Source: an uncultured Candidatus Poseidoniales archaeon
Lineage (GTDB): Archaea; Thermoplasmatota; Poseidoniia; Poseidoniales; Thalassarchaeaceae
Length of the DNA stretch: 41,119 nt
Assembly (NCBI GenBank): GCA_964342715.1
Contig: CAYFGD010000001.1
Span: 1 to 41,119, forward strand
Reading direction: 5' to 3'
A program made the position numbers and the translations under genes. Positions 1,561 through 31,192 of the stretch are shown here, one piece after another (the first letter of the stretch is position 1; every line of letters starts with the position of its first letter). The notes under the pieces were generated by a model. It had not been told where the DNA came from. It worked only from the letters and a program-made list of their open reading frames with translations, and did not search any database.

Positions 1561-1579
1561 TTCCAATTTACGTGTTTCC

Positions 1580-1595: not shown

Positions 1596-1643
1596 AGAAT
1601 AATATTTTGACTTGATATTGGAAACAGCCCCTCAGTGTAACGA

Positions 1644-1689: not shown

Positions 1690-1695
1690 ATTCAA

Positions 1696-1872: not shown

Positions 1873-1926
1873 CCATGGCAAAGATGGAGAATCATTCATT
1901 TGTGAGGTATGTATCGCGAAGTTACT

Positions 1927-2002
1927 GGGCTCGTGGTCTAGGGGTTATGACGTCGCCTTGACATGGCGAAGATCGCAGGTTCAATTCCTGCCGAGCCCAC
2001 CA
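1927..2002 (+). tRNA. tRNA-Val (anticodon GAC), CCA encoded
   Basis: Cloverleaf folded by hand. Acceptor stem GGGCTCG/CGAGCCC; anticodon stem TCGCC/GGCGA with loop TTGACAT (anticodon GAC); T arm GCAGG-TTCAATT-CCTGC; discriminator A1999; CCA at 2000-2002. No intron. Confidence 0.9.
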
Positions 2003-2030
2003 GTAATTTGTTACCTACTACAATGAAAAC

Positions 2031-2744: not shown

Positions 2745-4265
2745 TTAATCACCGAATGCCTCAGTAATTCCTCCGGATAGAAGGGCATTAGAAAGAGCGA
2801 GGCTGTCTTTTGACATTGCTCTGTCGGCTGTCAATCCAGGAACAGTGCGCCTTACCCATGAGTGAACCTTCTTCACACCAGCACCAGGAGCTTCAGGGAT
2901 CCTGTCTAGTGCCTCGGTTGAACATATCAGCTCATTTGCGATTACCTGTGCTAGGTACCTAGAGCTCTTCATTGATCTATGGGAACCAGTAGCCCCCATG
3001 GATACATGGTCTTCTTTGCCCATACTCACTGGAACATTGCTTGTCGTTGCTGGAGAAGCCATCATATGTAGCTCAGCGACAATCGCTGCAGATGTGTATT
3101 GAACAATCATGAGGCCACTTTCCAATCCCTCGTTTATTGCTAGGAAGGGCTTCTGCCCACTCCATTGTGGATCTAGAATTTGGGCCGTCCTTCGTTCTGA
3201 AATGCTCGCAATCTCATGACATGCAAGAGCTAGACCATCACTACTCATTGCTAAATATTGACCATGGAAGTTACCGCCAGATAGAATGCTTCCATCTCCA
3301 TTGAATACCAGGGGGTTGTCAGTAGCGCTATTTATCTCGATTGTAGTAATCCTCCTCGCTTCTCTTAGCATGTCAATTACTGGCCCGTGTACTTGCGGAA
3401 CGCATCTAAACGAGTATGCATCCTGAACTCTTCCACAATCGATGTGAGATGCGTTGATATCTGAATTAGAAAGAGCTTCCCTAATTCTAGCTGCTGAAAT
3501 CCCCTGCCCCCAATGGGGTCTGGAGTCATGAATCCTGTTGTCGAATGGAATATGAGAGCCCATAATGGCCTCAACAGAGCATGCTGCTGAGAGGTCGGCA
3601 GTGAACATTAGCATGTCCATGTTACTGATCGTTTCGCACATATATGCACACATTTGGCTAGTTCCGTTGATTAGTGACAGCCCCTCCTTTGCCTCTAAGA
3701 CGATAGGTGTAATTCCAAACATGTTTAGTGCAGTTTCTGAACTTGTGACAACAGCCTCCCCATTTTCAATAATCTCACATTCTCCTTCACCGATCAGAGC
3801 AAGGGCTAGGTGTGATAGTGGGGCTAAGTCACCCGATGCCCCGAGTGAGCCGATTCTCGGAATCACAGGACAGATGCCCGCATTAATCATTGAAATTAGC
3901 GTCTCAACTACGACGGGACGAGCACCTGATTGTCCACGGCATAGCGTATTTGCCCTGATTAGCATCATCATCCTTACATGCTCATACTCCATATTCTCGC
4001 CGACTCCACAGGCGTGACTTCTGATGAGATTCTCCTGCAATGACCTGAGGTCCTCAGAATTTATCGTTACAGATGAAAGAGCGCCGAAGCCAGTATTGAT
4101 TCCATATACTACCTCATCACCTTCCACAATGTCTTCGACTACCGCCCTGGATTTTACCATCCGTCCCATCGCAACTTCTGAGAGAGTCACTGTGACATCG
4201 CTCCTGCTAGCGTCTATGACGTCCTCTATAGTGAGATTGAATCCGTCAATAGACAACTCGCGCAT
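2745..4265 (-). CDS. hutH: histidine ammonia-lyase (HutH)
   Basis: Carries the MIO-forming motif GSLGASGDLAPLSH and has aromatic amino-acid lyase length. The longest ORF opens at TTG 4289; ATG 4265 (MRELSIDGFNLTIEDV) was chosen. Confidence 0.9.
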   Translation of the reverse strand: MRELSIDGFNLTIEDVIDASRSDVTVTLSEVAMGRMVKSRAVVEDIVEGDEVVYGINTGFGALSSVTINSEDLRSLQENLIRSHACGVGENMEYEHVRMMMLIRANTLCRGQSGARPVVVETLISMINAGICPVIPRIGSLGASGDLAPLSHLALALIGEGECEIIENGEAVVTSSETALNMFGITPIVLEAKEGLSLINGTSQMCAYMCETISNMDMLMFTADLSAACSVEAIMGSHIPFDNRIHDSRPHWGQGISAARIREALSNSDINASHIDCGRVQDAYSFRCVPQVHGPVIDMLREARRITTIEINSATDNPLVFNGDGSILSGGNFHGQYLAMSSDGLALACHEIASISERRTAQILDPQWSGQKPFLAINEGLESGLMIVQYTSAAIVAELHMMASPATTSNVPVSMGKEDHVSMGATGSHRSMKSSRYLAQVIANELICSTEALDRIPEAPGAGVKKVHSWVRRTVPGLTADRAMSKDSLALSNALLSGGITEAFGD

Positions 4266-4295
4266 GATACACGCCGGGGGGTATCGCAAATAGAC

Positions 4296-6308
4296 TCATC
4301 GAGAATCAAATATCTCCTTGATCAATGAATCTTCTACATCACTCGGTATCGTCACCTCAAGATCATCAATGGCTTCCATCGCCCTGAATATTGACCATCT
4401 TGCTGCTTCATTTCGTGCCCACGATCTTCGAGCGATTCCATTATTTACATCCCAGGAAATCATCGACTCAATATTCATCTTGCACCTTTCTGAGCCATCA
4501 ATGACCATCCCAAATCCACCATTTGTAACTTCACCCCAACCAACGCCTCCACCGTTATGAATGCTAATCCACGTCGCACCCCTGAAAGAGTCGCCAACGA
4601 AATTTTGTATGGCCATGTCAGATGTGAACATTGACCCATCATATATATCCGAAGTTTCTCTGAATGGACTGTCAGTACCACTAACGTCATGATGATCCCT
4701 ACCAATGACTATGGGAGCGGAGATTAGTCCATTCGATACAGCTTCATTGAATGCCTTAGCAATGGAAATTCTTCCGGCCTCATCTGAATATAGTATCCTA
4801 GCCTTGCTCCCAACAACAAGATCGTGTTTACCGGCTTCTTGTATCCATCTCAAATTATCCCTGTACTGCTGAACTATCTCTTCGGGGCAGTCCTCGATAA
4901 GAGCCTCTAGAGCCTTGATCGCGATACTATCGGTCATTTCTAAGTCGGACTGCTTTCCTGAGGTACATACCCATCTAAAAGGGCCAAAACCATAATCAAA
5001 ACACATGGGCCCCATAATATCCTCTACATATGAAGGGTAAGAATACGTACCGTCTTCGGAAAATACATCAGCTCCAGACCTGCCTGCCTCCAACAGGAAT
5101 GCATTCCCATAGTCCCAAAATCTCATGCCCCTAGAACAGAGCATGTTGATGGCATCGGAGTGCCTTCGGAGAGAATTACGAACGTGCTCCTTGAATCCTA
5201 CGGGATCGCTAGATAACAGCTCTTTGGCCCGATCATACGTGAATCCTACAGGCGTGTATCCCCCCAACCATGGGTTGTGTAAGCTTGTTTGGTCACTACC
5301 CAAATCGGGCGTCAAATCTTCATCAATAAGAGCTTCGAGAAGATCAACAATGTTACCAACATAACCAATTGAGACAGCTTCCCTATTCCGAACAGCCTCC
5401 CTAGCCCTGGATATTACTGTGCCAATCTCCTCATAGAGTTCCGAGAGCCAGCCCTGCTCGTACCTCTTTGATGCTGCAAATTTATCTACCTCTGCAATAA
5501 TACATACAGCACCTGCGATTACTGAAGCTTTAGCCTGGGCACCAGACATCCCACCCAATCCCGATGTGACGTACAAAACTCCTCCTAGGCCTTCTGTTGG
5601 TGATATTCCGAGATATTTTCTCGATGCATTAAGAATGGTGATCGTGGTACCGTGTACAATTCCCTGGGGGCCAATGTACATGTATGATCCAGCCGTCATT
5701 TGGCCGTATTGTGTAACCCCTAATGCACTCATTCTTTCATAATCGATCTGGGAAGAATAATTCGGTATTACCATGCCATTGGAGATTACTACCCTTGGGG
5801 CTGATATCGATGAAGGGAACAACCCCAATGGATGTCCGGAGTTCATAACCAATGTCTGCTCATCGGACATTTCAGAGAGGTATTTCATAGTTAATCGGTA
5901 TTGAGCCCAGTTCTGGAAAACAGTACCGTTTCCCCCATAGGTTACAAGTTCATGCGGGAACTGAGCTACTTCAGGGTCTAGATTATTTTGGATCATCATC
6001 ATTATTGCAGCTGCGCTCTTGGATCTTGCATTGTATTCGTTGATTGGCCTGGCGAACATCTTGTATTCAGGCCTAAATCTATGCATGTAGATATGGCCAA
6101 GATTGTCTAGTTCAGATAGAAATTCCTTTCCTAGTTCATAATGCCAATGTTTGGGGAAATACCTCAATGAATTTCTGACTGCGAGCTCTCTTTCTGCGTC
6201 ATTCAGTACTTGGGGCCTTGGAGGGGCATGCGGTATGTCGTCGTCAATAATTGGAGCACTTGGCAATTCATCGGGTATCCCGTAAAAATTAATGTCAGCC
6301 ATTACCAT
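4296..6308 (-). CDS. hutU: urocanate hydratase (HutU), long ~670-aa form
   Basis: Strongly urocanase-like throughout (GHPLGLFPSS, NGMVIPNYSS, MTAGSYMYIGPQGIVHGT, RDHHDVSGTDSPFRETS). It also has an N-terminal extension (HAPPRPQVL..LAVRNSLRYFP..GHIYMHRFRP). ATG is at 6308 or 6302. Confidence 0.9.
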   Translation of the reverse strand: MVMADINFYGIPDELPSAPIIDDDIPHAPPRPQVLNDAERELAVRNSLRYFPKHWHYELGKEFLSELDNLGHIYMHRFRPEYKMFARPINEYNARSKSAAAIMMMIQNNLDPEVAQFPHELVTYGGNGTVFQNWAQYRLTMKYLSEMSDEQTLVMNSGHPLGLFPSSISAPRVVISNGMVIPNYSSQIDYERMSALGVTQYGQMTAGSYMYIGPQGIVHGTTITILNASRKYLGISPTEGLGGVLYVTSGLGGMSGAQAKASVIAGAVCIIAEVDKFAASKRYEQGWLSELYEEIGTVISRAREAVRNREAVSIGYVGNIVDLLEALIDEDLTPDLGSDQTSLHNPWLGGYTPVGFTYDRAKELLSSDPVGFKEHVRNSLRRHSDAINMLCSRGMRFWDYGNAFLLEAGRSGADVFSEDGTYSYPSYVEDIMGPMCFDYGFGPFRWVCTSGKQSDLEMTDSIAIKALEALIEDCPEEIVQQYRDNLRWIQEAGKHDLVVGSKARILYSDEAGRISIAKAFNEAVSNGLISAPIVIGRDHHDVSGTDSPFRETSDIYDGSMFTSDMAIQNFVGDSFRGATWISIHNGGGVGWGEVTNGGFGMVIDGSERCKMNIESMISWDVNNGIARRSWARNEAARWSIFRAMEAIDDLEVTIPSDVEDSLIKEIFDSR

Positions 6309-6931
6309 CCCAGCCTCTCATCAATGATGCCTATGATTTTGGCATGATGTTTGTTGACGTTGTTTTCTATAGCGAATAGCTCTGATGAGATCAAATCACA
6401 CTCCTCTCCATCGATAGAGTCAAGATTTATCTTCACATTCATTGAAGCAATGACGAAAGAGCTCCTGGCCAGCTCGGCAGAGGCAGCCAAATCAGTCAGA
6501 GCATTTGAGTTACCGAATTTCGCTAGCTCGACAATAGAGATTAGAAGATGAAGAGAGCCCTCGGCGATTTTGAGTGGGGATCTTGCAGCGCCTATTGTCG
6601 CCGCCCTAATGGATTTCTTTCTGGACTCTATCTCGTCGTCATTATTTCGAGGTAGCCTAAACGACTCCATCACCCTGTCAAAAGATTCAGCATCAGCTCT
6701 TGCCATATCTATTGACGCTGCAATTCCTTCCTCGGACCGTACAATAACATCTTCCGCGGAAGCGTGTCCATCTGCCCATTTTTCCCTATCTAATGTCAAC
6801 CTCGATACCATCAGCGCGAGAGCGTGTGCATGAGCAAGGGTCAATGCAGCAACAGAGCCGCCGCCCGGAGTGGGGTCCGAAGAAGCAATTTTGTTGAGTA
6901 TGTCTGTATAGCCGTCGTTAATCTCACTCAC
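6302..6931 (-). CDS. formiminotetrahydrofolate cyclodeaminase (FTCD C-terminal-domain family)
   Basis: 209-aa helical ORF with the PTPGGGSVAAL motif. The GTG start overlaps the upstream formiminotransferase by 8 nt. Confidence 0.8.
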   Translation of the reverse strand: MSEINDGYTDILNKIASSDPTPGGGSVAALTLAHAHALALMVSRLTLDREKWADGHASAEDVIVRSEEGIAASIDMARADAESFDRVMESFRLPRNNDDEIESRKKSIRAATIGAARSPLKIAEGSLHLLISIVELAKFGNSNALTDLAASAELARSSFVIASMNVKINLDSIDGEECDLISSELFAIENNVNKHHAKIIGIIDERLGW

Positions 6932-7961
6932 CTCTGTTTATTGCCCATTCGATTATACATGTTCGGGGATCAAACTCACCAAATTTATCGAGTGAAAGTC
7001 CGGAAATAGCGGCATTTACTAGCTCATTATCGGCAGCACCGTCTGAATCGGCCAGATATTTCTTTCCTGCGGACAACATGGCATTTAGTGGCACAAGACC
7101 AACTAGCTCCGAAGATGTTACCGAATAGCCCAGTTTATTGGCTTCGGATCTGATTGTCTCGGTGACATCGTGAAGACCAGTTACATTGTGGTCCAGTAAG
7201 TTCATGGAAACTTGGGCTGTGTCCTCATCGAACATCCATCCAGCTGCTTGCAGAGATTTGAACATTCCAGGGGTCCTGAGTGGCTTCCCATCATCTCCTA
7301 TGACCTTGGCGCCACTTTCATCCTTGACTAGTGCTCCGCTAGTTCTGATTCTGGATGCTATAGAGTTAGCAATTTTCTTATCGTCAGTATTCAAATTCAC
7401 GTTGTAGGCAATAAGAACCTGTCTAGCACCTGTTGCAGTAACGCCCATTGATGGATTGAATGTACTAGGTCCGAAATCGGGCTTCCATCCCTCTGATTTA
7501 ATCTTCTCCCCCATGCCTTCATACTCCCCTTTTCTAATATCGGGAAGCCTGACTCTAGCCTCTTCTCTTGCTGCCTCTGCATACAGATAAACGGGAAGCT
7601 CGAATTTCTCGGAAACTGCCTGGGCGTATCTTTCGGATAAAGCGATGCAATCATCCATTGAGGTACCACTAAGCGGTATGAATGGGACCACATCCACTGC
7701 CCCCATACGCGCATGCTCCCCTGTGTGGTGCCTCATATCAATCAAATTTACAGCTATCTCGGTGCAGTCAATGACGGCCTTCAGGACAGCCTCGGGTTCA
7801 CCAACCATCGTTACTACGGTTCTATTGAAATCATAACCCATATCAACGTCGAGAAGCTCAACATCATCTCCCTCTATAATGGGCCTAGTGATCCTTTCGA
7901 TTACGGACGGGTCCCTACCCTCACTAAAATTCGGCACACACTCGATAAGGGCGCGACTCAC
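6924..7961 (-). CDS. glutamate formiminotransferase (FTCD N-terminal-domain family)
   Basis: N-terminal signature ECVPNFSEGRD. At 345 aa it fits the two formiminotransferase subdomains. GTG start. Confidence 0.85.
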   Translation of the reverse strand: MSRALIECVPNFSEGRDPSVIERITRPIIEGDDVELLDVDMGYDFNRTVVTMVGEPEAVLKAVIDCTEIAVNLIDMRHHTGEHARMGAVDVVPFIPLSGTSMDDCIALSERYAQAVSEKFELPVYLYAEAAREEARVRLPDIRKGEYEGMGEKIKSEGWKPDFGPSTFNPSMGVTATGARQVLIAYNVNLNTDDKKIANSIASRIRTSGALVKDESGAKVIGDDGKPLRTPGMFKSLQAAGWMFDEDTAQVSMNLLDHNVTGLHDVTETIRSEANKLGYSVTSSELVGLVPLNAMLSAGKKYLADSDGAADNELVNAAISGLSLDKFGEFDPRTCIIEWAINRGE

Positions 7962-13682: not shown

Positions 13683-14486
13683 CTAGGACTCATCTTCTTC
13701 GTCATCAACGAAACCCTTTGTCTCAGCATACTGCGCCATCGATTCTAGCCTCTTCATGAACTTCGATCCATCGGTGGTAGTCTCAGTGGACCTAACTAGC
13801 CACACTCCGCCAAAGACTACCTCCCATAATCCCAGATTGTCCTTCCTCTGCCTTCGGAAAATCCAGTCCAAAAACGGAATTAGAATAATTGCAATAGATA
13901 GTCCGACTGTGATTTTAGTAGCTGTAGTCCATACTGTACCAGCGGATATCGCTATTAGAAGGCCTCCAAAGAATATCAGGTAGGCTGGGATGTTGATGTT
14001 CTTCAACATGTGATAAAGGAAAATCGCAGAATCTCCGCGAGAATTGATGAACGTGGTTCGCGAAATTACATTGCCCATAGAACTCTTGTACTGAATCGGC
14101 ATAACTACCATGTTGAATATCGACAATAGTAAAACCAAGACTAGTGGCCATGTGATATCGGTATATGTCAATACCAGTCCGAAAATTACCAATCCTATGA
14201 TTAGGCCGAAGTTGACTGTGAAGTCTACGAAAAATCTCAGTGATCTCCTCCCACGACCTGCTAGTTCGAAACCGTCAGGCAGTTCCTTAACTGAGGATCG
14301 TGGCTTTTTCTGCTTCTTCGCTCTCGGTTTCTTTGCCTTCTTCTGTTTCTTTGCCTTCTTCTCTTTCTTCGGCTTAACTGCGACTGGTTCGGGCTCTAGA
14401 ACTACAGCTGCGGGCACTGCAGCAGGTGCTTCCTCATCGCTCGTCTTATCGTCCGTAATCTTTCCTGCCTTCTCCAATAGACCCAT
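13683..14486 (-). CDS. membrane protein with lysine-rich cytoplasmic tail, weakly RDD-family-like
   Basis: N-terminal KPKKEKKAKKQKKAKKPRAKKQKKPR tract, then GRGRRSLRFFVDFTVNF and 4-5 hydrophobic helices, ending in an acidic C-terminus. ATG 14486 lies 4 nt after the upstream stop. GTG 14510 would give a 20-nt overlap. Confidence 0.6.
   Translation of the reverse strand: MGLLEKAGKITDDKTSDEEAPAAVPAAVVLEPEPVAVKPKKEKKAKKQKKAKKPRAKKQKKPRSSVKELPDGFELAGRGRRSLRFFVDFTVNFGLIIGLVIFGLVLTYTDITWPLVLVLLLSIFNMVVMPIQYKSSMGNVISRTTFINSRGDSAIFLYHMLKNINIPAYLIFFGGLLIAISAGTVWTTATKITVGLSIAIILIPFLDWIFRRQRKDNLGLWEVVFGGVWLVRSTETTTDGSKFMKRLESMAQYAETKGFVDDEEDES
14327..14362 (-). repeat. perfect 18-bp in-frame tandem duplication (2 copies)
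   Basis: GTTTCTTTGCCTTCTTCT occurs at 14327-14344 and again at 14345-14362. On the coding strand it encodes KKAKKQ/KKAKK(P) within the lysine tract. Confidence 0.9.
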
Positions 14487-14490
14487 GTAA

Positions 14491-15219
14491 TCACTCTCCG
14501 TACAGCTCACTCATCCGTTGAAATACCTGGAAACCCGATGAAGCAACGAAATCATTGATATCACTCTCAGGGAGGTCCCCGAGAACTGAGTTGATCATAG
14601 TGAAAAACTCACCCCTAGTATCCTGATCACAGCCTGATGGGTCTTCGCCCACATTCTGAAATAGTTCGAACGAATCTGACTCAATGAAGTCCTGTACGAA
14701 TTCCTCAGGCATGTTCCCTAATAGCTCATTGACGATAGAGAAAAACTCCGGAAACTCGTCGTCCACATCCTCTTCGATCTCCTCATCATCGGATTCGGGG
14801 GCGGAGATCAGCTCAACTATTGGCTTGATTGCCAACATATCCTGCTGCTGCTTCTTCCTGAGCACGATAATTTCTCTATCTAGTTCGGAGCCGAATCTAT
14901 CAGAAAAACGATCCAATAGAGTGCCAACTTGACCCGATGAAATTCTGTCTATATGGCCATACATACTATCCCTATTTTCAGATGATTGGACTGAATCATC
15001 AAGCTTCCTTTTTTCCCAGTGAGCTTGGAAGTCGTTCGACTCGGACTCTTCTTCATCATTCGAAGATGATTGGAGAGGAGGCGTCTCGTCAATAGCGCTC
15101 TCAATCGCTTCATCTTGGAGAGGTGGCGGTGGTGGCGGAGGGGGCATTGCGATGCCAGGAGGGGGGGGTGGAAGGGGCATCCCTGAAGGCCCACCTTCGG
15201 TTTCTTCGTCGTCTGGCAT
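14491..15219 (-). CDS. acidic protein with polyproline N-terminus and two C-terminal ~33-aa repeats (unknown function)
   Basis: Features are MPLPPPPPGIAMPPPPPPPPLQ, long D/E/S-rich segments, and the repeats EFFSIVNELLGNMPEEFVQDFIESDSFELFQNV / EFFTMINSVLGDLPESDINDFVASSGFQVFQRM. ATG 15219 was chosen; the ORF opens at GTG 15228. I recognise no family. Confidence 0.6.
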   Translation of the reverse strand: MPDDEETEGGPSGMPLPPPPPGIAMPPPPPPPPLQDEAIESAIDETPPLQSSSNDEEESESNDFQAHWEKRKLDDSVQSSENRDSMYGHIDRISSGQVGTLLDRFSDRFGSELDREIIVLRKKQQQDMLAIKPIVELISAPESDDEEIEEDVDDEFPEFFSIVNELLGNMPEEFVQDFIESDSFELFQNVGEDPSGCDQDTRGEFFTMINSVLGDLPESDINDFVASSGFQVFQRMSELYGE

Positions 15220-15251
15220 ATGCCCCACCGTAACGAATCCGGAACTCTACA

Positions 15252-16505: not shown

Positions 16506-16703
16506 CTAATCTAGGACTAAGCTATTAGGGACTTCCTTGGAATCTGTGGCTGACTCATTGCCTGTCAATTCGAGGTACGCTTCATAGGAAACAAATTGGT
16601 CATCTACTACGATAGCTTCTGAAAAGGTCAGTGCTATACCTGTAACTGCGCAAATAGGGCCAAGTTGGCCAGTAGCGGTGGATAGTTTGGTCGGGTCAGG
16701 CAC
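16506..16703 (-). CDS. hypothetical 65-aa protein (doubtful)
   Basis: This is the only ORF in the otherwise unusually long 324-nt gap between priS and mqnD. It has a GTG start only, no internal Met and no recognisable motif. Confidence 0.25.
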   Translation of the reverse strand: MPDPTKLSTATGQLGPICAVTGIALTFSEAIVVDDQFVSYEAYLELTGNESATDSKEVPNSLVLD

Positions 16704-16791
16704 AAATCCGGGACAGAGTGTTGTCTATTCACTGTTGCCATGCACAATTCGAGAGGCAAGGAATTTTCTATTCGGCCTATGCCGAAGGCAC

Positions 16792-17652
16792 ATGGATGAT
16801 GGGATGGGAGTGTACCGAGTTGGCCATTCTCCAGATCCCGATGACGCCTTCATGTTTCACGCAATGACTACGGGAGCGATAGACACGGGAGGCAGGAAGT
16901 ATGATCACGTCCTACTTGACATCGAGACTCTAAACAAACATGCACTCTTGGGAGAGTACGAAGTTTCCGCCGTAAGCATCCATTCATACCCGGAAATTTC
17001 TGATAAGTACCACCTCATGAACTGTGGTGCGTCCATGGGAGAGGGGTATGGCCCAATGCTAATTTCAAACAGAGAAATTTCGATTGAAGAGGCAAAAAAT
17101 TCTAAGATTGCGATACCAGGACTAGGGACCAGCGCATATCTAGCATTGAGATTAGCATGGGGGGATGTTGACGTAGAGGTGATCCCATTCGACGAGATCC
17201 TTCCTGCTGTTTCGAAAGGAAGATATGATGTGGGATTGATAATTCATGAAGGTCAACTTACATGGAAGTCCGAGGGAGTGAAGCTTGTTATGGATCTTGG
17301 AGTTTGGTGGAACGAGAGGACTGGATTACCACTTCCACTGGGTGGAAATGTGGTGAGGAAGGACCTTGGAATGGGGTTGTGCGAACTTCTAACGAAAGAC
17401 GTCCGAAATAGTATCGAGCACTCTCTAGCCAATCCGTCTGCGGCCCTTGAATTCGCTAAAGCTTGGGGCAGGGGCATAGACGATGATACGAATAGGGAAT
17501 TCGTAGGCATGTATGTTAACGAAAGGACTCTAGACTATGGGGAAGACGGGAGGGAAGCGATACGACTATTTCTGAAGGAGGGGCAAAGAATCGGTATGGT
17601 CAGAGAGACACTGGATGTTGACTCAATAAAATTCGTTGGTTCAGGTGAGTAA
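16792..17652 (+). CDS. mqnD: 1,4-dihydroxy-6-naphthoate synthase (MqnD), futalosine pathway
   Basis: GHSPDPDDAFMFHAM, LLDIETLN, IAIPGLGTSAYL, GLIIHEGQLTW, DLGVWWNERTGLPLPLGG and MYVNERTLDYG follow the MqnD consensus as I recall it. The ORF opens at GTG 16678; ATG 16792 was chosen. Confidence 0.85.
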   Translation: MDDGMGVYRVGHSPDPDDAFMFHAMTTGAIDTGGRKYDHVLLDIETLNKHALLGEYEVSAVSIHSYPEISDKYHLMNCGASMGEGYGPMLISNREISIEEAKNSKIAIPGLGTSAYLALRLAWGDVDVEVIPFDEILPAVSKGRYDVGLIIHEGQLTWKSEGVKLVMDLGVWWNERTGLPLPLGGNVVRKDLGMGLCELLTKDVRNSIEHSLANPSAALEFAKAWGRGIDDDTNREFVGMYVNERTLDYGEDGREAIRLFLKEGQRIGMVRETLDVDSIKFVGSGE

Positions 17653-18132
17653 ATGACGGGAGACAAGCCAGAAATGAGTGAGTTCGATTCAGTTGATCCC
17701 GCTCCTCCAAGTGGTGATTCCAATGTCCCTAGACTGAGGGAGACTATATGTGATGAGGAAGAGCGTATGTTTCAGAGGATGAGGGCACTATTTGCATTGA
17801 GGAACATAGGCGGAAATGACTCCATCGAGGCATTGGCTGCAGCATTTTCTTCCGAATCCGCGTTATTGAAACACGAGATCGCATATGTAATGGGGCAGAT
17901 GCAGGATTCACACGCAGTGCCATTCCTAATTGAAAGATTGAGGGACATGGAAGAGGACGTCATGGTTAGACATGAAGCGGCCGAGGCATTGGGTGCAATA
18001 GGGGATAGGAAGGCTCTAGGAGTCCTTGAAGAATTCAAAGACGATAGGGACGTTGTTGTAGCTGAATCTTGTGAGGTCGCATTGGATCTGCTAGAATGGG
18101 TAGCTAGTAAGAGGCTCAACTATTCTGAATGA
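17653..18132 (+). CDS. half-size deoxyhypusine-hydroxylase-like HEAT-repeat protein (two His-Glu motifs)
   Basis: 159 aa. SVDPAPP...RLRE...RMRALFALRNIGG...SALLKHEIAYVMGQMQD..AVPFL...VMVRHEAAEALGAIG...VVAESCEVALDLLEW aligns by eye with the C-terminal half of eukaryotic DOHH. H74-E75 and H107-E108 are 33 residues apart. The ATG follows the mqnD TAA with zero spacing. Confidence 0.75.
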   Translation: MTGDKPEMSEFDSVDPAPPSGDSNVPRLRETICDEEERMFQRMRALFALRNIGGNDSIEALAAAFSSESALLKHEIAYVMGQMQDSHAVPFLIERLRDMEEDVMVRHEAAEALGAIGDRKALGVLEEFKDDRDVVVAESCEVALDLLEWVASKRLNYSE

Positions 18133-18920
18133 AATGCCCAAACTGGGCTATCTTCCATCCCACAAGCTATTTTCAGGAATGTCGTCAATCCTTCTACATC
18201 CCTGTCATTCATTCTATTCCTAACCTCTCGCTGGAAATAGTCATCCATTCTATCGTAGGGGAATCCCAATTTCTCAGATGATCTAGAAATAACACTCCTT
18301 CTCCAGGAGTCATCTGATTCAAATTTCTCCAATTGAGAGATCATGTCTCCGTATGCCCTGAGGAGGTGAGTCTGGGGTGAGTCCCGCCTAGCTGCAAACA
18401 CTCCGAAGACCATGGGTAATCCCGTAGATTCAGTCCATTCTCGACCTAGGTCTAGTTTTACCAAATCTGGATATTTTCTTGACGCCATAAGAGAGCGGTC
18501 ACCAATTAGCAATGCTCCATCACATTTCTCCAGCATTGTATCTATATCCGGCCCAGAATCGACGAATTTTGGATCGAGTCCCCTGTTATTGAGCGCCCAC
18601 CTAAGCAGTACCTTTGATGTCGAGGAATCTGACGGAAGTGCGATATCTCTCATATTTTCAAGGGGCCTTGATCCGAAAAGAAGTACTGACCCTACATCTC
18701 CACTACTCACTATTCCCAGATCTGGAAGGAGGAATAGTTCTTCATGGTGCAAGGCGTAGTCGGCTGCGGGTATAGGCGCAGTAAGGCAATCCTTCCTGAG
18801 TACGTGGCCAGTTAGCCATGCAGGCGGTGCCGGGAGTACTGACCACTTCTCATCAATTCCATCAAAAATCGGATCGCAATTGGAGAATGAAACCCTTCCA
18901 ATCACATCTACCCAACTCAT
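18120..18920 (-). CDS. mqnA: chorismate dehydratase (MqnA), futalosine pathway
   Basis: IVSSGDVGSVLLFGSRPL, IALPSDSSTSKVLLRWAL, DGALLIGDRSL and DLGREWTESTGLPMVFGVFAAR match the MqnA consensus. ATG 18920 was chosen; the ORF opens at GTG 18929. Confidence 0.85.
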   Translation of the reverse strand: MSWVDVIGRVSFSNCDPIFDGIDEKWSVLPAPPAWLTGHVLRKDCLTAPIPAADYALHHEELFLLPDLGIVSSGDVGSVLLFGSRPLENMRDIALPSDSSTSKVLLRWALNNRGLDPKFVDSGPDIDTMLEKCDGALLIGDRSLMASRKYPDLVKLDLGREWTESTGLPMVFGVFAARRDSPQTHLLRAYGDMISQLEKFESDDSWRRSVISRSSEKLGFPYDRMDDYFQREVRNRMNDRDVEGLTTFLKIACGMEDSPVWAFHSE

Positions 18921-18934
18921 TAATTGCACCTGAC

Positions 18935-20146
18935 CTAATTTGGGGCTATCTGGGGCAGAACTCTGGAAAACGATGGATTGCTGGAGGCATATATCTCGAA
19001 TATGGAGTAATTTGAGTTTCTTTTTACTGGCGTAGAGCCAGTAGATGAAACCAATGCTGCTAGTTGGTCAGAACTCGTGTCGAGCCTTGTAGAACTACCA
19101 GCAACGTGCATTATTTCTTCGTGGCCGACGGTTCCATCGATATCATCCGCACCACATGTAAGAGCCAGTGATGAGAGCTTGTCCCCGATATTCATCCTGT
19201 ATGCCTTGATGTGAGGAATATTATCCAACATAATCCTAGAGACTGAAATTACCCTAATTATCTCGCTCCCCGTTGCTAGTTGCGCGTCTGGCAGTCTTGT
19301 TTTGTCGGGAAGGAAGGGGTATGGTACGAAGCACTGGAATCCATTGCTAAAATCCTGTTGTTCCCTAAGTCGGATGAGGTGTTCAACCCTATCCTCTATT
19401 GTTTCGACTGTCCCAAATAACATTGTGCAGTTAGTCGGCATGCCAATATTATGCGCGATAGCATGGATATCCAGGTATTCCTGGGAGGACTCCTTGCCCA
19501 TACAGATCCTATCTCTGACATGATCCACAAGTATCTCGGCCCCACCGCCGGGAAGGGAGTCGAGGCCGGCATCTGAAAGCATTGACAGGGTATTTTCTAC
19601 CGACAAAGAGGATCTTTTCGAGAGGTGTTTGATCTCAACAGCCGTGAGGGCTTTGATATGGATATCGGGGAATTCTGATTTGGTAGCAGAAAACAGCCTG
19701 CAATAATCCTCGACATCCCAATTGGGGTGGAGGCCACCCACTGTATGAACTTCGTCAATGGAGGATGATAAGGGCCTGATTCTACCCAGATATTCGTCTA
19801 TATCTAGAGCGTAGGCATCGGGATGCCTTGGGCCCTTCCTGAAGGCACAAAAGCGACAAGCCAAGACGCAGATATTGGTTGTATTTACATGGAGATTCTC
19901 ATTGAAAAATATATTGTTTCCATATCTAGACTTCTTCACCATGTTTGCCAGAGAAGTGACTGATGATAGGGATGGATTTTCGAATAATCTGATTCCTTGT
20001 TCGCGGGAAACCCTCCCATTCTCGATTAGAGATTTGAGGCATGACATGGCCAACGGGTCGGATGATACTGGCAGTGGTACGGTCATCTTGGATAGCTTTT
20101 CACGCCAATCTAGATTTCCTGAGAGCGGCATTATATCCGCTGCCAT
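18935..20146 (-). CDS. radical SAM menaquinone enzyme, MqnE (aminofutalosine synthase) or MqnC
   Basis: CVLACRFCAF radical-SAM CxxxCxxC cluster in a CofH/MqnE/MqnC-like ~400-aa protein adjacent to mqnA. The track ORF extends to 20380, but that extension is low-complexity and overlaps the transketolase gene. ATG 20146 (or 20131) was chosen. Confidence 0.8.
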   Translation of the reverse strand: MAADIMPLSGNLDWREKLSKMTVPLPVSSDPLAMSCLKSLIENGRVSREQGIRLFENPSLSSVTSLANMVKKSRYGNNIFFNENLHVNTTNICVLACRFCAFRKGPRHPDAYALDIDEYLGRIRPLSSSIDEVHTVGGLHPNWDVEDYCRLFSATKSEFPDIHIKALTAVEIKHLSKRSSLSVENTLSMLSDAGLDSLPGGGAEILVDHVRDRICMGKESSQEYLDIHAIAHNIGMPTNCTMLFGTVETIEDRVEHLIRLREQQDFSNGFQCFVPYPFLPDKTRLPDAQLATGSEIIRVISVSRIMLDNIPHIKAYRMNIGDKLSSLALTCGADDIDGTVGHEEIMHVAGSSTRLDTSSDQLAALVSSTGSTPVKRNSNYSIFEIYASSNPSFSRVLPQIAPN

Positions 20147-20240
20147 GTGTATTGACACTGAGAGGCATGTGATAAGAATTGTCTGATAGGGTGTGTTTCG
20201 TGTCCGGAAATTATCATTAGTTAGATTCAGTAGGAACAAC

Positions 20241-21077
20241 ATGAGTGGGAATGCGGGACGCCGGAACCTGTCAATCCCAGAGCTAGAAGTACTGTCGAAT
20301 AACTGTAGGAAGCATATAGTGAAAATGATCCACAGTGCTGGCGCGGGACACCCTGGTGGTTCACTATCAGCTATTGACATAATCGCGGCTCTTTATGGGA
20401 CTCGACTAAGATTCAAGACAAGTGAGCCGGAATGGGACGATAGGGATCGATTCGTGATGAGTAAAGGTCACGCCAGTCCGGCGGTTTACTCCATTCTTCA
20501 CGAAATGGGCTTTCTGAATGAGGATGACCTGTCGACCTTCAGGACGCTAGGTTCAGTATGCCAAGGACATGTTGACATGAAGTGGACCGATGGCGTAGAT
20601 TTCTCCGCCGGAAGCCTTGGCATGGGCCTATCATTCGGACTTGGATGTGCATTGGCAGCCAGGATGGACTCCAGCAATAGAGAAACTTGGGTCATGGTGG
20701 GAGATGGTGAGATTCAGGAAGGGCAGATATGGGAAGCATTGATGGCGGCAGACTTCCATAGTGTGTCAGGGTTGAAACTCATAGTGGATAGGAATAGGAT
20801 CCAAAATGATGACTTCGTAAATGTACAGATGGAAGTGGGCGACGTAGCGTCTAAAATCGAGGCCTTCGGTTGGAATGTAAGGGAGATCGATGGCCATAAT
20901 ATGGATGAAATTGTCGAGGCATTGGATTGGGCATCTAACATGGGTTCGGGCCCATCAGCAATTGTAGCTCATACGGTAAAGGGCAAGGGAGTTTCATTCA
21001 TGGAGAATAACCCGTCATTCCATGGCAAGGCTCCTGACGATGAGGAACTGAAAATGGCATTGGAGGAATTATCATGA
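20241..21077 (+). CDS. transketolase, N-terminal (TPP-binding) subunit
   Basis: GAGHPGGSLS and GDGEIQEGQIWEA motifs. Split-gene arrangement with the next ORF. ATG 20241 was chosen over the upstream alternative start. Confidence 0.9.
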   Translation: MSGNAGRRNLSIPELEVLSNNCRKHIVKMIHSAGAGHPGGSLSAIDIIAALYGTRLRFKTSEPEWDDRDRFVMSKGHASPAVYSILHEMGFLNEDDLSTFRTLGSVCQGHVDMKWTDGVDFSAGSLGMGLSFGLGCALAARMDSSNRETWVMVGDGEIQEGQIWEALMAADFHSVSGLKLIVDRNRIQNDDFVNVQMEVGDVASKIEAFGWNVREIDGHNMDEIVEALDWASNMGSGPSAIVAHTVKGKGVSFMENNPSFHGKAPDDEELKMALEELS

Positions 21078-28664: not shown

Positions 28665-29462
28665 ATGGGCAGTACAGTGGTTATCAAGATGGGCGGTGGC
28701 CTAATTACTGACAAATCCAAACATAAGTCGGTGAAGATGGGAGTAATTGATTCCCTCTCAAACATGGTATCAATTCTAATAGAAGAGGGGAATTCTGTGA
28801 TTATAGTTCATGGTGCAGGATCATTTGGACATCTCACAGCAAAGGAGTGGGGCCTTTCCGAGGGGGTTAAGGAAGAGATTTCCGAGGAGCAGAGGGGAGC
28901 AGTAGTCCAAGTACGTGCGGACATGATTGAGTTGTGTGGTTTCGTCATGAGAAGTTTGGAAGGCAGGGGCCTGGAGTGTAAATCACTCCCTCCCTCCAAT
29001 TGGGCGACAGGCACCGGTTCTGATTTTTCTGGTAGTTTGCAGGGATTTATCGAGTCGTCGCAAAGCGAGGTTATGGTCACATTCGGGGACGTTGTCGAGA
29101 AGGATGATCATTCTGAGTTTGGAATACTCTCAGGTGATGACCTTATGGCGAGACTATCAATTGAGATTCCAGGAGTGGAATACTCCATTTTTCTTCTAGG
29201 GGACTCGCCTGGAATGATGGATATGCCACCAAATATGGATGGTGCGGAGTTGCTAGATGTGTGGTCACCCGGGATAGATGCGGAAACATTCCATAACACG
29301 GAAGAGGACGTAACTGGGGGAATTGAGCTCAAGGCCCGGAGGGCCGCCGAAATCGCTAGGCACGTGCCCAATGTTTGGTTTATCGACGGGAGAGAGCCAA
29401 GCAGAGTTGTTGACCTTGTCGTTGATGGATTATTGCCCATAGGAACGAAGATATTGCCCTAA
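28665..29462 (+). CDS. ipk: isopentenyl phosphate kinase (IPK; amino-acid-kinase fold)
   Basis: VVIKMGGGLITDK and IVHGAGSFGH motifs, ~265 aa. ATG 28665 was chosen. The stop TAA overlaps the next ATG (TAATG). Confidence 0.85.
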   Translation: MGSTVVIKMGGGLITDKSKHKSVKMGVIDSLSNMVSILIEEGNSVIIVHGAGSFGHLTAKEWGLSEGVKEEISEEQRGAVVQVRADMIELCGFVMRSLEGRGLECKSLPPSNWATGTGSDFSGSLQGFIESSQSEVMVTFGDVVEKDDHSEFGILSGDDLMARLSIEIPGVEYSIFLLGDSPGMMDMPPNMDGAELLDVWSPGIDAETFHNTEEDVTGGIELKARRAAEIARHVPNVWFIDGREPSRVVDLVVDGLLPIGTKILP

Positions 29463-31192
29463 TGGTGGATTTCGATTATATGTTGCCGATTCCTCCGGGA
29501 ATTATGGCGAGTCATGATGGGGCACTTAGCGGACAAGACAGCTCTCAGGCTGAGATGATGTCTGAAATGTGCATCTTGGTCGATAGTTCGGACAGAAAGG
29601 TTGGTTCCGATTCGAAATTAAATTGTCACTATGGGGAGGGGATTCTGCACAGAGCATTCAGTGTGATAATGTTTGATGGGGAAGGAAAAATGCTAGTGCA
29701 GCAGAGGTCTCACGACAAAATCACTTTCCCATCTATTTGGGCAAACTCATGTTGTAGTCACCCTCTGGATATACCTGGTGAGAATGGTGATCCTGCCGAG
29801 GGAGCTATCAATGCAGCGAAAAGGAAGCTTTCTCAGGAGCTAGGAGTTTCCGAGAGTGATATTTCGAAGATTGAGTTCCGACACGTAGGATCATTCCTTT
29901 ACGAGTGTAGATGGGATGAAGACTGGATTGAGAGAGAGGTAGATCACGTATTGATAGCTACTACGGACTCAATTGATGTGAATCCTAATCCAAACGAAAT
30001 ATCGGATCACAGGTGGTTGGAGGGAGATGAAATTGAGGGCATGTTTTCTGGCTCAGGAATTTGGGAAGGAGAGGTTGTTGCACCGTGGTTCAGGCTTCTA
30101 TGGAATAGGTTCCTAGCAGAGCATTATCCAAATTTCAATGATGTTCCCGCCGTTGACGGAGTTGTTAACTTCGGTGAGGTCACAATGGATGGTCGGCCGG
30201 TAGACCCCGGACAGAACCTAATGATGGCGATAGGCAGCCACCGTGAGAATGTCGAGAAAGTGATTATGCAAAGTCTCAGTAAAATGAAACAAGAGAGGCT
30301 GCACGGGGCCATGAAGCACCTGTTCACCGGGGGTGGCAAGAGGCTGAGGGCCACATTGCCTAGATTGGTAGGCGAAGCTGTAGGTGAGGCGCATGAGGGG
30401 CACTACACTCTCGGTGCATCGATCGAGATCATTCATAATTTCACCCTTGTGCATGATGATTTGATGGACGAAGATCCAATCAGACGGGGACTGGAAGCAG
30501 TGCATGTAGCTTATGACGATTCTACGGCGATTAATGCGGGGGACGCGATGCTCGCAGTCGCATTTGAGATTCTCGCAGAGTCCCCCCATATAGGACAGGA
30601 CAAGCTTGGTTTCCTAGTGAGATCCATTGGAGAGATGGTGAGAAATGTTGCTAGCGGTCAGCAGGAGGATATATCGTTCGAAACTAGGGATTCTGTTTCG
30701 GAAGATGAATACATCGAGATGATCAAAGGCAAGACGAGCGTGATGTTTGAAACGTGTGCTGGAACGGGAGCTATACTTGCAAGTGCATCGGATGAAGCGG
30801 TTGATAACATGAAGAAGTGGGGGCTGAATCTAGGGCTTTGTTTTCAGCTGATGGATGATTTGATTGACATAACTGGAGATACAGAGACTCTTGGAAAGCC
30901 AGCCGGTTCGGATATCGTCCAGGGTAAAAAGACCCTGATTGCGATCCATGCCCTAAATTGTGGGCATGAAATGCCAGCATTTTCACAGGCTTATGGATCG
31001 GGCGATTGCTCTGACGATTTGCTATCGAAAGCTGTGGCTGAATTGCATGAAAGTGGATCTATAGAGTACGCGAAGAATAGAGCGATGCATCACCACGCCA
31101 TTGCACATGGATGTCTGGACGAGGTTCCTGACGGATCAGCTCTGAGCGTCCTCAGGGAACTTACTGATTTCCAGCTAGTCAGGATAAACTAA
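29462..31192 (+). CDS. fusion: type-1 isopentenyl-diphosphate isomerase (Nudix-fold IDI) + geranylgeranyl diphosphate synthase
   Basis: The N-terminal ~215 aa carry HRAFSV..., WANSCCSHPL and EREVDHV (IDI-1). The C-terminal ~330 aa carry the FARM motif LVHDDLMDED (Phe at position -5, a short-chain determinant) and the SARM motif FQLMDDLID. Confidence 0.85.
   Translation: MVDFDYMLPIPPGIMASHDGALSGQDSSQAEMMSEMCILVDSSDRKVGSDSKLNCHYGEGILHRAFSVIMFDGEGKMLVQQRSHDKITFPSIWANSCCSHPLDIPGENGDPAEGAINAAKRKLSQELGVSESDISKIEFRHVGSFLYECRWDEDWIEREVDHVLIATTDSIDVNPNPNEISDHRWLEGDEIEGMFSGSGIWEGEVVAPWFRLLWNRFLAEHYPNFNDVPAVDGVVNFGEVTMDGRPVDPGQNLMMAIGSHRENVEKVIMQSLSKMKQERLHGAMKHLFTGGGKRLRATLPRLVGEAVGEAHEGHYTLGASIEIIHNFTLVHDDLMDEDPIRRGLEAVHVAYDDSTAINAGDAMLAVAFEILAESPHIGQDKLGFLVRSIGEMVRNVASGQQEDISFETRDSVSEDEYIEMIKGKTSVMFETCAGTGAILASASDEAVDNMKKWGLNLGLCFQLMDDLIDITGDTETLGKPAGSDIVQGKKTLIAIHALNCGHEMPAFSQAYGSGDCSDDLLSKAVAELHESGSIEYAKNRAMHHHAIAHGCLDEVPDGSALSVLRELTDFQLVRIN

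What the first reader, a model, noticed from the sequence alone, without database searches (positions are those of the whole stretch)
17653..18132. Half-size deoxyhypusine hydroxylase (DOHH)-like protein in an archaeon
The 159-aa ORF aligns by eye with one half, seemingly the C-terminal half, of eukaryotic DOHH/Lia1. It shares the inter-domain string SVDPAPP, then RLRE, R(A/M)(M/L)FALRN.GG, SAL(L/F)(K/R)HE(I/V).YV.GQ(M/L)Q, VRHE.AEALGAI and V(V/R)ESCEVALD. These are my recollections of the human sequence. It carries exactly two His-Glu motifs (H74-E75 and H107-E108) spaced 33 residues apart. That is the spacing I recall for each pair of metal-binding HE motifs in the pseudo-symmetric eukaryotic enzyme (four HE motifs, two per half). 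A homodimer could therefore rebuild the di-iron site. To my knowledge a DOHH orthologue has been considered missing from archaea, even though some archaea contain fully hydroxylated hypusine. A single-half version would be either the missing enzyme, an ancestral form predating the internal duplication, or a fragment acquired from a eukaryote. Its ATG directly follows the mqnD stop (TAAATG), so it is expressed in an operon.
Basis: partly seen in the sequence, partly recalled or inferred. Interest (0 to 1): 0.8.

Follow-up and report, generated by a model that had tools for sequence, protein, structure and literature searches.

The report
Half-size deoxyhypusine hydroxylase in marine archaea
Marine Group II archaea carry a conserved gene for exactly one half of the two-lobed iron enzyme that eukaryotes use to finish the hypusine modification of translation factor 5A, although the hypusine literature repeatedly says archaea have no such enzyme.

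Summary
ORF 17653-18132 (+) encodes 159 aa that match human DOHH at E=1e-74. Both human halves align (121 and 131 bits); generic HEAT proteins reach at most 45 bits per stretch. Both His-Glu motifs (H74-E75, H107-E108, 33 apart) and Gly81 are essentially invariant in 132 homologues, and dN/dS is 0.06. The gene is single-copy, always about 159 aa, and every named copy is from Marine Group II archaea (300 GTDB species genomes hold a relative). It directly follows mqnD. Only the N-terminal SVDPAPP arm is C-type. A tandem of two copies models confidently onto whole human DOHH (TM 0.94, 1.4 A), but this is a compatibility check only. Published MGII pangenome tables list DHS in 97-99% of genomes and label this gene DOHH, yet no paper found discusses it. 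The best reading is a homodimeric di-iron deoxyhypusine hydroxylase acting on aIF5A. Activity, dimerisation and substrate are inferred, not shown. It does not explain hypusine in Crenarchaeota.

The parts
17653..18132 (+). Gene for the half-size DOHH homologue: 159 aa, one four-HEAT-repeat lobe plus an N-terminal arm.
   Evidence: ORF. phmmer against PDB gives human DOHH 4d4z at E=1.1e-74, with both halves matched. More than 3000 clusters (at 90% identity) match it, and the 120 best are nearly all 157-161 aa from MGII. Median dN/dS is 0.063.
17689..17709 (+). N-terminal arm motif S13-V-D-P-A-P-P19, the counterpart of the inter-domain linker of eukaryotic DOHH.
   Evidence: It aligns to human SVDPAPP just before the C half. 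FDSVDPAP is nearly invariant in 132 MGII homologues. D and P of the motif are invariant in 70 eukaryotic DOHHs. No eukaryotic protein has a second copy at its N terminus (0 of 93).
17872..17877 (+). First His-Glu motif, H74-E75 (CAC GAG), equivalent to human H56-E57 and H207-E208.
   Evidence: Alignment. H is present in 131/132 and E in 132/132 homologues. H56/H207 anchor iron and E57/E208 bind the deoxyhypusine side chain (PMC9117371).
17893..17895 (+). Gly81 in the GQMQ motif, equivalent to the human glycines G63(65)/G214 implicated in substrate binding.
   Evidence: Present in 132/132 homologues. Invariant in the alignment with 70 eukaryotic DOHHs. Role taken from PMC9117371.
17971..17976 (+). 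Second His-Glu motif, H107-E108 (CAT GAA), equivalent to human H89-E90 and H240-E241.
   Evidence: Alignment. Present in 132/132 homologues for both residues. All four human residues anchor the di-iron centre (PMC9117371).
17644..17648 (+). Shine-Dalgarno-like GGTGA, 5-9 nt upstream of the ATG and inside the 3' end of mqnD.
   Evidence: Sequence. An SD-like motif starts at -16..-6 in 39 of 55 orthologous loci, and the mqnD stop abuts the ATG in 27 of 55.
16678..17652 (+). Upstream gene in the same transcription unit: MqnD-like (futalosine-pathway menaquinone synthesis).
   Evidence: Pfam PF02621 VitK2_biosynth at 6.4e-68. It is adjacent in all 80 GTDB loci that reach far enough and in the divergent P0211 lineage.
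18120..18929 (-). Convergent downstream gene, MqnA-like. Its 3' end overlaps the DOHH-half 3' end by 13 bp.
   Evidence: Pfam PF02621 at 1.4e-46. Coordinates.
18935..20380 (-). Radical-SAM MqnC/MqnE-like gene, the next member of the mqn cluster (context only).
   Evidence: Pfam Radical_SAM plus CofH_C.

Best explanation
The gene encodes a single-lobe member of the deoxyhypusine hydroxylase family: four HEAT repeats carrying two His-Glu motifs, plus an N-terminal arm. Two identical subunits most likely pair concave face to concave face, as the N and C lobes of eukaryotic DOHH do. Each subunit would then supply His74, His107 and Glu108 to one iron of a shared di-iron centre lying on the dimer axis. 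Glu75, Glu108 and Gly81 would line the pocket for the deoxyhypusine side chain. Using O2 (MGII are obligate aerobes), the enzyme would convert deoxyhypusine, made on aIF5A by the universal archaeal DHS, into hypusine. It is co-transcribed with mqnD. Shown here: family homology, conservation of the catalytic and substrate-binding residues, purifying selection, single copy, restriction of the named copies to MGII, and presence of DHS in MGII. Inferred: homodimer, iron binding, hydroxylase activity, aIF5A as substrate. In origin, the protein looks like an undifferentiated half, probably descended from the form that existed before the internal duplication that produced eukaryotic DOHH.
For: Homology: human DOHH at E=1.1e-74, 121 and 131 bits to its two halves. 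It is 43-51% identical to about 300-aa two-lobed DOHHs, of which the named ones are eukaryotic. Catalytic residues: H74 is in 131/132 homologues and E75, H107, E108 and G81 in 132/132, down to 59% identity. These are the positions that anchor iron and bind deoxyhypusine in the human enzyme (PMC9117371). In an alignment of a tandem of the window protein with 70 eukaryotic DOHHs, all 21 invariant columns of either half are satisfied by the one archaeal sequence. Generic HEAT proteins lack His-Glu at these positions. Selection: median dN/dS 0.063. Single copy: no locus has two copies, and the one MAG with two loci carries the same neighbourhood twice. One pangenome gene cluster covers both clades. 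Geometry: a head-to-tail tandem models at pLDDT 91.3 and pTM 0.89, and superposes on whole human DOHH at TM 0.94, RMSD 1.4 A over 287 of 290 columns. Every other HEAT structure has RMSD above 7 A. Pathway context: DHS is in 153/158 and 91/92 MGII genomes and this gene in 119/158 and 72/92 (Tully 2019 Suppl. Data 10). MGII are obligate aerobes. Native gene: found in 300 GTDB species genomes, including a 1.6-Mb single contig, with GC and codon usage like its neighbours.
Against: No biochemical evidence of any kind exists. The tandem surrogate used only eukaryotic full-length rows, and AlphaFold was trained on 4d4z, so one search shows compatibility, not independent prediction. Without an alignment the tandem failed (pLDDT 55). 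aIF5A was not found in the window. It is not listed in the MGII core table, and I could not retrieve an MGII aIF5A to inspect its lysine loop. The only conserved genomic association is with menaquinone genes, not translation genes. Whether any MGII aIF5A carries hypusine is unknown.
Confidence: 0.6

Rival explanations
1. It is a DOHH-family di-iron oxygenase, but it acts on a substrate other than aIF5A. One possibility is a quinone or a futalosine-pathway intermediate or product, as suggested by its fixed position inside the mqn cluster.
For: It abuts mqnD in every locus that reaches far enough. The pair stays together in the divergent P0211 lineage even though a WD40 gene is inserted downstream. 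An SD-like site within mqnD implies co-translation. Its occupancy in MGII genomes (75-78%) parallels that of mqnA/C/D/E (75-91%).
Against: The residues shown by mutagenesis to bind the deoxyhypusine side chain (E57/E90/G63 equivalents) are invariant. Identity of 43-51% to an enzyme with a single known protein substrate argues that the binding surface is retained. The known futalosine pathway has no O2-dependent hydroxylation step (my own knowledge). Unrelated genes (PriS, transketolase) are just as collinear across the 80 loci, so the synteny is not independent evidence of a functional link. No HEAT-repeat protein is a known Mqn component.
Confidence: 0.2
2. It is a recent or derived fragment: the C-terminal half of a eukaryotic DOHH acquired by horizontal transfer and truncated. 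Any function is secondary.
For: The N-terminal arm carries the SVDPAPP motif that in eukaryotes precedes the C half only. C halves score higher than N halves against the MGII profile when the arm is included (136 vs 110 bits). The phyletic range is narrow, and the nearest relatives are eukaryotic.
Against: On the shared core, MGII scores equally on N- and C-half profiles (C minus N = -2.9 bits, range -4.6 to -0.4). Held-out C halves give +33.9 and N halves -31.6. The column log-likelihood ratio is +7, against +68 for N and -76 for C. MGII is closer to both halves (43% and 45%) than they are to each other (38%). The (MGII,C) grouping wins only 41 of 300 outgroup quartet bootstraps. MGII is not nested in any eukaryotic subgroup in the NJ tree. 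Composition is native, and the gene is core to both MGIIa and MGIIb, so any transfer would be ancient.
Confidence: 0.12
3. It is a non-catalytic HEAT/PBS-lyase-type scaffold or adaptor, and the DOHH resemblance reflects only shared repeat architecture.
For: Pfam reports only HEAT_PBS (59.8 bits) and HEAT_2 (59.1 bits). NCBI labels homologues 'HEAT repeat domain-containing protein' or 'PBS lyase'.
Against: Pfam reported no DOHH-specific family, so those hits are not competitors. NCBIfam lyase and NblB models score 17-40 bits against cut-offs of 300-600. DOHH scores 121-131 bits per half against at most 45 for consensus HEAT designs. The His-Glu pairs are invariant here and absent at the same columns in generic HEAT proteins. 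The two-lobe model matches only DOHH.
Confidence: 0.05

Closest known systems
Eukaryotic deoxyhypusine hydroxylase (human DOHH, yeast Lia1; PDB 4D4Z/4D50)
   Same: Same repeat type. It is 43-51% identical. The His-Glu motifs match with 33-residue spacing, as do the GQMQ glycine, the MVRHEAAEALGAIG and ESCEVALD blocks and the SVDPAPP arm/linker. Two copies model onto the whole human enzyme at 1.4 A.
   Different: It has one lobe (159 aa, four HEAT repeats, two HE motifs) instead of two fused, diverged lobes (about 300 aa, eight repeats, four HE motifs), so it must oligomerise to build a di-iron site. Its core is not differentiated into N-type or C-type. It is found in an archaeal order, co-transcribed with a menaquinone gene.
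HEAT_PBS repeat proteins (phycobilin lyases CpcE/CpeY, NblB, MTH187, alphaRep designs)
   Same: Same Pfam repeat families (PF03130, PF13646) and the same helical-hairpin repeat.
   Different: Scores are far below the family cut-offs. These proteins lack His-Glu at the metal positions. They form a continuous solenoid rather than a two-lobe dyad (RMSD 7 A or more).
Other proposed routes to hypusine without a DOHH (bifunctional DHS of Trichomonas vaginalis; unknown hydroxylase of Sulfolobus)
   Same: They address the same step, hydroxylation of deoxyhypusine on IF5A, in organisms thought to lack DOHH (PMC6105217; PMC8153317).
   Different: Here a true DOHH homologue is present. I found it only in Marine Group II, so the Crenarchaeota question stays open.

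Membership tests
Deoxyhypusine hydroxylase (DOHH/Lia1) family | Sequence homology to DOHH across a whole lobe, clearly above generic HEAT repeats | tested here: met
   4d4z at E=1.1e-74, with 121.5 and 131.3 bits to its two halves, against at most 45 bits per stretch for alphaRep. It scores 164-169 bits on profiles of eukaryotic N and C halves.
Deoxyhypusine hydroxylase (DOHH/Lia1) family | Two His-Glu motifs per lobe, 33 residues apart, strictly conserved | tested here: met
   H74-E75 and H107-E108. They are present in 131-132 of 132 homologues. The human positions come from PMC9117371.
Deoxyhypusine hydroxylase (DOHH/Lia1) family | Residues implicated in binding the deoxyhypusine side chain (E57/E90/E208/E241 and G63(65)/G214 equivalents) | tested here: met
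   E75, E108 and G81 are invariant. Their roles come from PMC9117371.
Deoxyhypusine hydroxylase (DOHH/Lia1) family | Eight HEAT repeats in one chain forming a pseudo-symmetric dyad with four His-Glu motifs | tested here: not met
   It has only one lobe (159 aa). This length is constant across more than 100 listed homologues and 80 genomic loci, with no second copy. That is why I file it as a variant and not a canonical member.
Deoxyhypusine hydroxylase (DOHH/Lia1) family | Two lobes can adopt the DOHH face-to-face arrangement that brings the His-Glu motifs together | tested here: inconclusive
   A tandem surrogate gives pLDDT 91, and TM 0.94 / RMSD 1.4 A to 4d4z. But its alignment held only eukaryotic DOHH rows, no true multimer run was possible, and no coordinates were available to measure distances.
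Deoxyhypusine hydroxylase (DOHH/Lia1) family | Binds a di-iron centre and forms a peroxo-diiron(III) intermediate | not testable with these tools
   This needs metal analysis and spectroscopy of the purified protein.
Deoxyhypusine hydroxylase (DOHH/Lia1) family | Hydroxylates deoxyhypusine on (a/e)IF5A | not testable with these tools
   This needs an enzyme assay, or mass spectrometry of MGII aIF5A.
Deoxyhypusine hydroxylase (DOHH/Lia1) family | Pathway partners present in the same organisms (DHS and IF5A) | tested here: inconclusive
   DHS is in 153/158 and 91/92 MGII genomes (Tully 2019 Suppl. Data 10). aIF5A is absent from the window and not listed in that core table. Its presence is inferred from its status as a universal archaeal marker (TIGR00037 in Rinke 2019; PMC6105217).
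Phycobilin lyase / NblB (HEAT_PBS enzymes) | Reaches the curated NCBIfam cut-off for CpcE, CpeY or NblB | tested here: not met
   NblB scores 40.3 against a cut-off of 300, CpcE 23.4 against 330, and CpeY 17.3 against 600.
Futalosine-pathway (Mqn) enzymes | Homology to a known Mqn protein family | tested here: not met
   The only hits are HEAT families. The association with mqnD, mqnA and the radical-SAM gene is positional.

The most novel reading that the evidence does not exclude
The MGII protein is a living descendant of the single-lobe, homodimeric ancestor of DOHH, from before the tandem duplication and fusion that produced the eukaryotic enzyme. On this reading the SVDPAPP 'linker' of eukaryotic DOHH is simply the ancestral N-terminal arm of the second copy. 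The hydroxylation step of hypusination is then not a purely eukaryotic invention. Either it existed in aerobic archaea, or it passed between an MGII ancestor and stem eukaryotes before the last eukaryotic common ancestor. The evidence does not exclude this and mildly favours it. The core is equidistant from N and C halves. It is closer to each half than they are to each other. It has the shortest distance to the outgroup, and the (N,C)|(MGII,outgroup) topology wins 168 of 300 bootstraps.
Probability: 0.4. Interest if true: 0.85.

Novelty: new variant of a known kind. Interest (0 to 1): 0.72.

Why it matters
Hypusine papers and reviews from 2016 to 2021 state that archaea have DHS but no DOHH homologue, and how some archaea make fully hydroxylated hypusine is treated as an open question. 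Here, an abundant and globally distributed archaeal order carries an unmistakable DOHH homologue as a core gene. That turns one part of the question into a direct experiment: express a 159-aa protein, test it for dimer formation, iron binding and activity, and look for hypusine on MGII aIF5A in existing ocean metaproteomes. The half-size, undifferentiated form is also a natural minimal version of an unusual enzyme, the only known HEAT-repeat di-iron oxygenase. It offers a rare look at how a pseudo-symmetric two-lobe active site arose from a homodimer, and at when the last step of hypusination evolved relative to eukaryote origins. It does not solve the Crenarchaeota puzzle, because I did not see the family outside MGII.

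Tried and rejected
2. Tandem fusion without an alignment: pLDDT 55, unusable.
The accepted job therefore had only eukaryotic rows, which weakens its independence.
4. Model coordinates are not exposed, so I could not measure His/Glu distances.
5. Neighbour-joining tree of N halves, C halves and MGII: the best tree shows three clean clades, but bootstraps are too weak to use (N 42/200, C 18/200). An earlier version timed out. I relied on the profile classifier and quartet test instead.
6. Strict 'diagnostic column' counts give too few columns to be informative (1 vs 1, 1 vs 3).
7. aIF5A and DHS are not in the 41-kb window. I validated an M. jannaschii aIF5A query but did not spend a large database search on it, because the 120 listed hits would be methanogens, not MGII.
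8. The exhaustive representative search lists only the best 150 (177 bits or more). A half-size relative at about 45% identity would score about 130 bits and would not be listed. 'Confined to MGII' is therefore a statement about what was visible, not a proof.
9. Viral contigs: no relative was found with either the protein or the alignment.
10. Park 2006 (PNAS) and Kim 2006 (JBC) are not held. The residue roles come from the review PMC9117371.
11. Recent horizontal transfer was rejected on composition. Pseudogene status was rejected on dN/dS. A heterodimer of paralogues was rejected because the gene is single-copy.

Full report
OBSERVATION. The ORF at 17653-18132 (+) is real: ATG start, 159 aa. 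The upstream ORF ends with TAA at 17650-17652, so stop and start abut. The protein has exactly two His-Glu dipeptides, H74-E75 and H107-E108, 33 residues apart. A phmmer search of PDB sequences gives human deoxyhypusine hydroxylase (4d4z) at E=1.1e-74. There are two aligned stretches: residues 24-151 against the N-terminal lobe (121.5 bits) and residues 3-149 against the linker plus C-terminal lobe (131.3 bits). Consensus-designed HEAT proteins (alphaRep) reach at most 45 bits per stretch. Pfam reports only HEAT_PBS and HEAT_2 and returned no DOHH-specific model. NCBIfam phycobilin-lyase and NblB models score 17-40 bits against cut-offs of 300-600.

WHOSE GENE IT IS. The window is an archaeal chromosome. 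It carries a PAN ATPase, aEF-2, ribosomal proteins S7, S12 and L37ae, exosome subunits, the primase small subunit and several tRNA synthetases. The protein has 3271 relatives at E<=1e-5 among 90%-identity clusters. The best 120 are nearly all 157-161 aa, and those with names come from Marine Group II archaea (Poseidoniales, Thalassarchaeaceae). NCBI calls them 'HEAT repeat' or 'PBS lyase' proteins, and JGI calls them 'deoxyhypusine monooxygenase'. A scan of one genome per GTDB species found 300 stretches encoding a relative. The best 80 are all MGII-type MAGs, one of them a 1.6-Mb single contig. GC content and codon usage match the neighbouring genes. This is a native, long-resident gene and not contamination.

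CONSERVATION. Across 132 half-size homologues, down to 59% identity, H74 is present in 131 and E75, H107, E108 and G81 in all 132. The N-terminal F-D-S-V-D-P-A-P string is nearly invariant. Median dN/dS among unsaturated pairs is 0.063. According to the review PMC9117371, human H56, H89, E90, H207, H240 and E241 anchor the di-iron centre, and E57, E90, E208, E241 and two glycines bind the deoxyhypusine side chain. The archaeal residues are the exact counterparts. I aligned a tandem of the window protein with 70 full-length relatives. All 21 invariant columns, some in the first lobe and some in the second, are satisfied by the single archaeal sequence. Generic HEAT proteins have no His-Glu at these columns. 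The second refutation criterion, that the HE positions are not conserved, is not met.

WHICH HALF. An exhaustive HMMER pass over 1.84 billion representatives found only two half-size clusters among the best 150, both MGII, plus one fragment. Nearly all the other hits with high identity (38-52%) are proteins of roughly 240-460 aa matched in two stretches; the rest are giant multi-HEAT proteins at 30-41% identity. The named examples of the two-stretch proteins are eukaryotic: a fungus, a crustacean and a EukProt entry. I split 111 such proteins into N and C halves. With the N-terminal arm included, C halves score higher against the MGII profile (136 vs 110 bits). On the shared core (residues 25-150) the picture changes. 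MGII is 43.1% identical to N halves and 45.3% to C halves, while N and C halves are only 37.6% identical to each other. I trained profiles on half of the eukaryotic set. Held-out N halves preferred the N profile by 31.6 bits (range 14 to 50), and held-out C halves preferred the C profile by 33.9 bits (15 to 48). All six MGII representatives scored the same on both, with a difference of -0.4 to -4.6 bits, and they scored higher on the N profile (167 bits) than real N halves do (151). A per-column log-likelihood ratio gives +68 for N, -76 for C and +7 for MGII. A neighbour-joining tree shows three clades meeting near one point, but bootstraps are weak. With four-repeat segments of unrelated HEAT proteins as outgroup, the four-point test favours (N,C)|(MGII,outgroup) in 168 of 300 bootstraps, (MGII,N) in 91 and (MGII,C) in 41. 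MGII also has the shortest distance to the outgroup. The core is therefore an undifferentiated lobe. 'Truncated eukaryotic C half' is the least supported origin and 'pre-duplication form' the most, but only weakly. The arm fits either story. In eukaryotes the motif occurs once, before the second lobe, and never at the N terminus (0 of 93). That is what one expects if the ancestral lobe carried an N-terminal arm that became the linker after tandem fusion.

CAN TWO COPIES REBUILD THE SITE. As a surrogate I fused two copies head to tail, since the protein's own N-terminal 20 residues correspond to the human linker. Without an alignment the model was poor (pLDDT 55). With 70 full-length relatives as alignment rows it was confident (pLDDT 91.3, pTM 0.89). 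It superposed on whole human DOHH at TM 0.94 and RMSD 1.4 A over 287 of 290 columns. Every other HEAT structure gave RMSD above 7 A. This shows that the archaeal sequence is compatible with playing both lobes. It is not an independent prediction of a dimer, because the alignment rows were the fused enzyme and 4d4z predates AlphaFold training. No locus has a second copy, and the one MAG with two loci holds the same neighbourhood twice, so a homo-oligomer is the only available partner arrangement. The third refutation criterion, that the motifs cannot be brought together, is not met, but the test was soft.

GENOMIC CONTEXT. The upstream gene is MqnD-like. Downstream on the other strand lie an MqnA-like gene, whose 3' end overlaps by 13 bp, and an MqnC/E-like radical-SAM gene. 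The order PriS(-), MqnD(+), DOHH-half(+), MqnA(-), rSAM(-), transketolase(+) holds in all 80 loci as far as the contigs reach. Unrelated genes are just as collinear, so this alone does not argue for a functional link. In the most divergent lineage (62% identity), mqnD and the DOHH-half still abut although a 786-aa WD40 gene has been inserted just downstream. A GGTGA Shine-Dalgarno-like site lies within the end of mqnD in 39 of 55 loci. Co-transcription with mqnD is therefore likely. A role in menaquinone chemistry is a live but weaker rival, because the substrate-binding residues for deoxyhypusine are intact and the known futalosine pathway has no oxygenase step (my own knowledge).

PATHWAY CONTEXT AND LITERATURE. 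Neither aIF5A nor DHS is in the window. Supplementary Data 10 of Tully 2019 (PMC6336850), the 'MGII Core' sheet, lists deoxyhypusine synthase in 153/158 and 91/92 genomes of the two clades. It lists 'DOHH; deoxyhypusine monooxygenase', as one gene cluster, in 119/158 and 72/92. 'Core' there means present in at least 70% of both MGIIa and MGIIb genomes, and the paper describes all MGII as obligate aerobes. aIF5A is not in that sheet. It is one of the 122 universal archaeal markers used for the MGII phylogeny by Rinke 2019, and archaeal genomes are said always to contain it (PMC6105217), but I could not inspect an MGII copy. Papers and reviews from 2016 to 2021 state that no DOHH homologue or orthologue has been identified in archaea (PMC5178350, PMC6105217, PMC7773846, PMC8153317). 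Full-text searches found no paper combining hypusine or DOHH with Marine Group II, Poseidoniales or Asgard archaea. The label therefore exists in pipelines and in one supplementary table, but nobody appears to have noticed what it means.

VERDICT. This is a real, conserved, single-lobe member of the DOHH family in an abundant archaeal order. Most likely (about 0.6) it is a homodimeric di-iron deoxyhypusine hydroxylase acting on aIF5A. Family homology, residue conservation, selection, copy number, distribution and DHS co-occurrence are shown. Dimerisation, iron binding, activity and substrate are inferred. It is a new variant of a known kind. It contradicts a repeated statement in the field, but it does not explain hypusine in Crenarchaeota, where I did not see the family. 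One limit on 'restricted to MGII': only the best 150 representatives were visible, so more distant half-size relatives, which would score near 130 bits, would not have been listed.

Noticed in passing
window 79-7961: A histidine-utilisation cluster: amidohydrolase (79-1443, +), aromatic amino-acid lyase/HutH (2745-4289, -) and urocanase (4296-6308, -). The formiminotransferase-cyclodeaminase route is split into two genes, FTCD_C (6302-6931, -) and FTCD_N (6924-7961, -).
   Followed up: no
window 29462-31192 (+): A 576-aa fusion of a NUDIX domain with a polyprenyl synthetase. It is possibly an isoprenoid-pathway fusion.
   Followed up: no
window 13683-15228 (-): Two ORFs (275 and 245 aa) with no Pfam match and acidic, Pro-rich or Lys-rich low-complexity stretches. 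The 245-aa one is conserved next to PriS in most of the 80 MGII loci.
   Followed up: partly
window 18120-18132: The 3' ends of the DOHH-half gene (+) and the convergent MqnA-like gene (-) overlap by 13 bp.
   Followed up: no
window 34615-37341: A UbiD-like decarboxylase (a possible late menaquinone step), followed by a TPR protein and a small NUDIX protein, about 15 kb from the mqn cluster.
   Followed up: no
L081 10542-12902: In the most divergent half-size lineage (P0211, Thalassarchaeaceae), a 786-aa WD40 beta-propeller gene is inserted between the DOHH-half and the MqnA-like gene. A P-type ATPase and an OPT transporter lie between the radical-SAM gene and transketolase.
   Followed up: no
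Tully 2019 (PMC6336850) Supplementary Data 10, 'MGII Core' sheet: The MGII core table lists DHS and agmatinase (speB) but has no EIF5A entry and no spermidine synthase entry. If spermidine synthase really is absent, deoxyhypusine in MGII might be made by the agmatine route described for Haloferax (PMC6105217).
   Followed up: partly
window 16678-17652 (+): The MqnD-like ORF as listed starts at GTG 16678 (324 aa). The Pfam match begins at residue 46 and orthologues are 285-303 aa, so the true start is probably an internal ATG about 40 codons downstream.
   Followed up: no
L007 and L026 (both from MAG UBA105): One MAG contains the whole PriS-to-transketolase neighbourhood twice, with the DOHH-half copies 84% and 79% identical to the window protein. 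This indicates two MGII populations binned together, not paralogues.
   Followed up: yes
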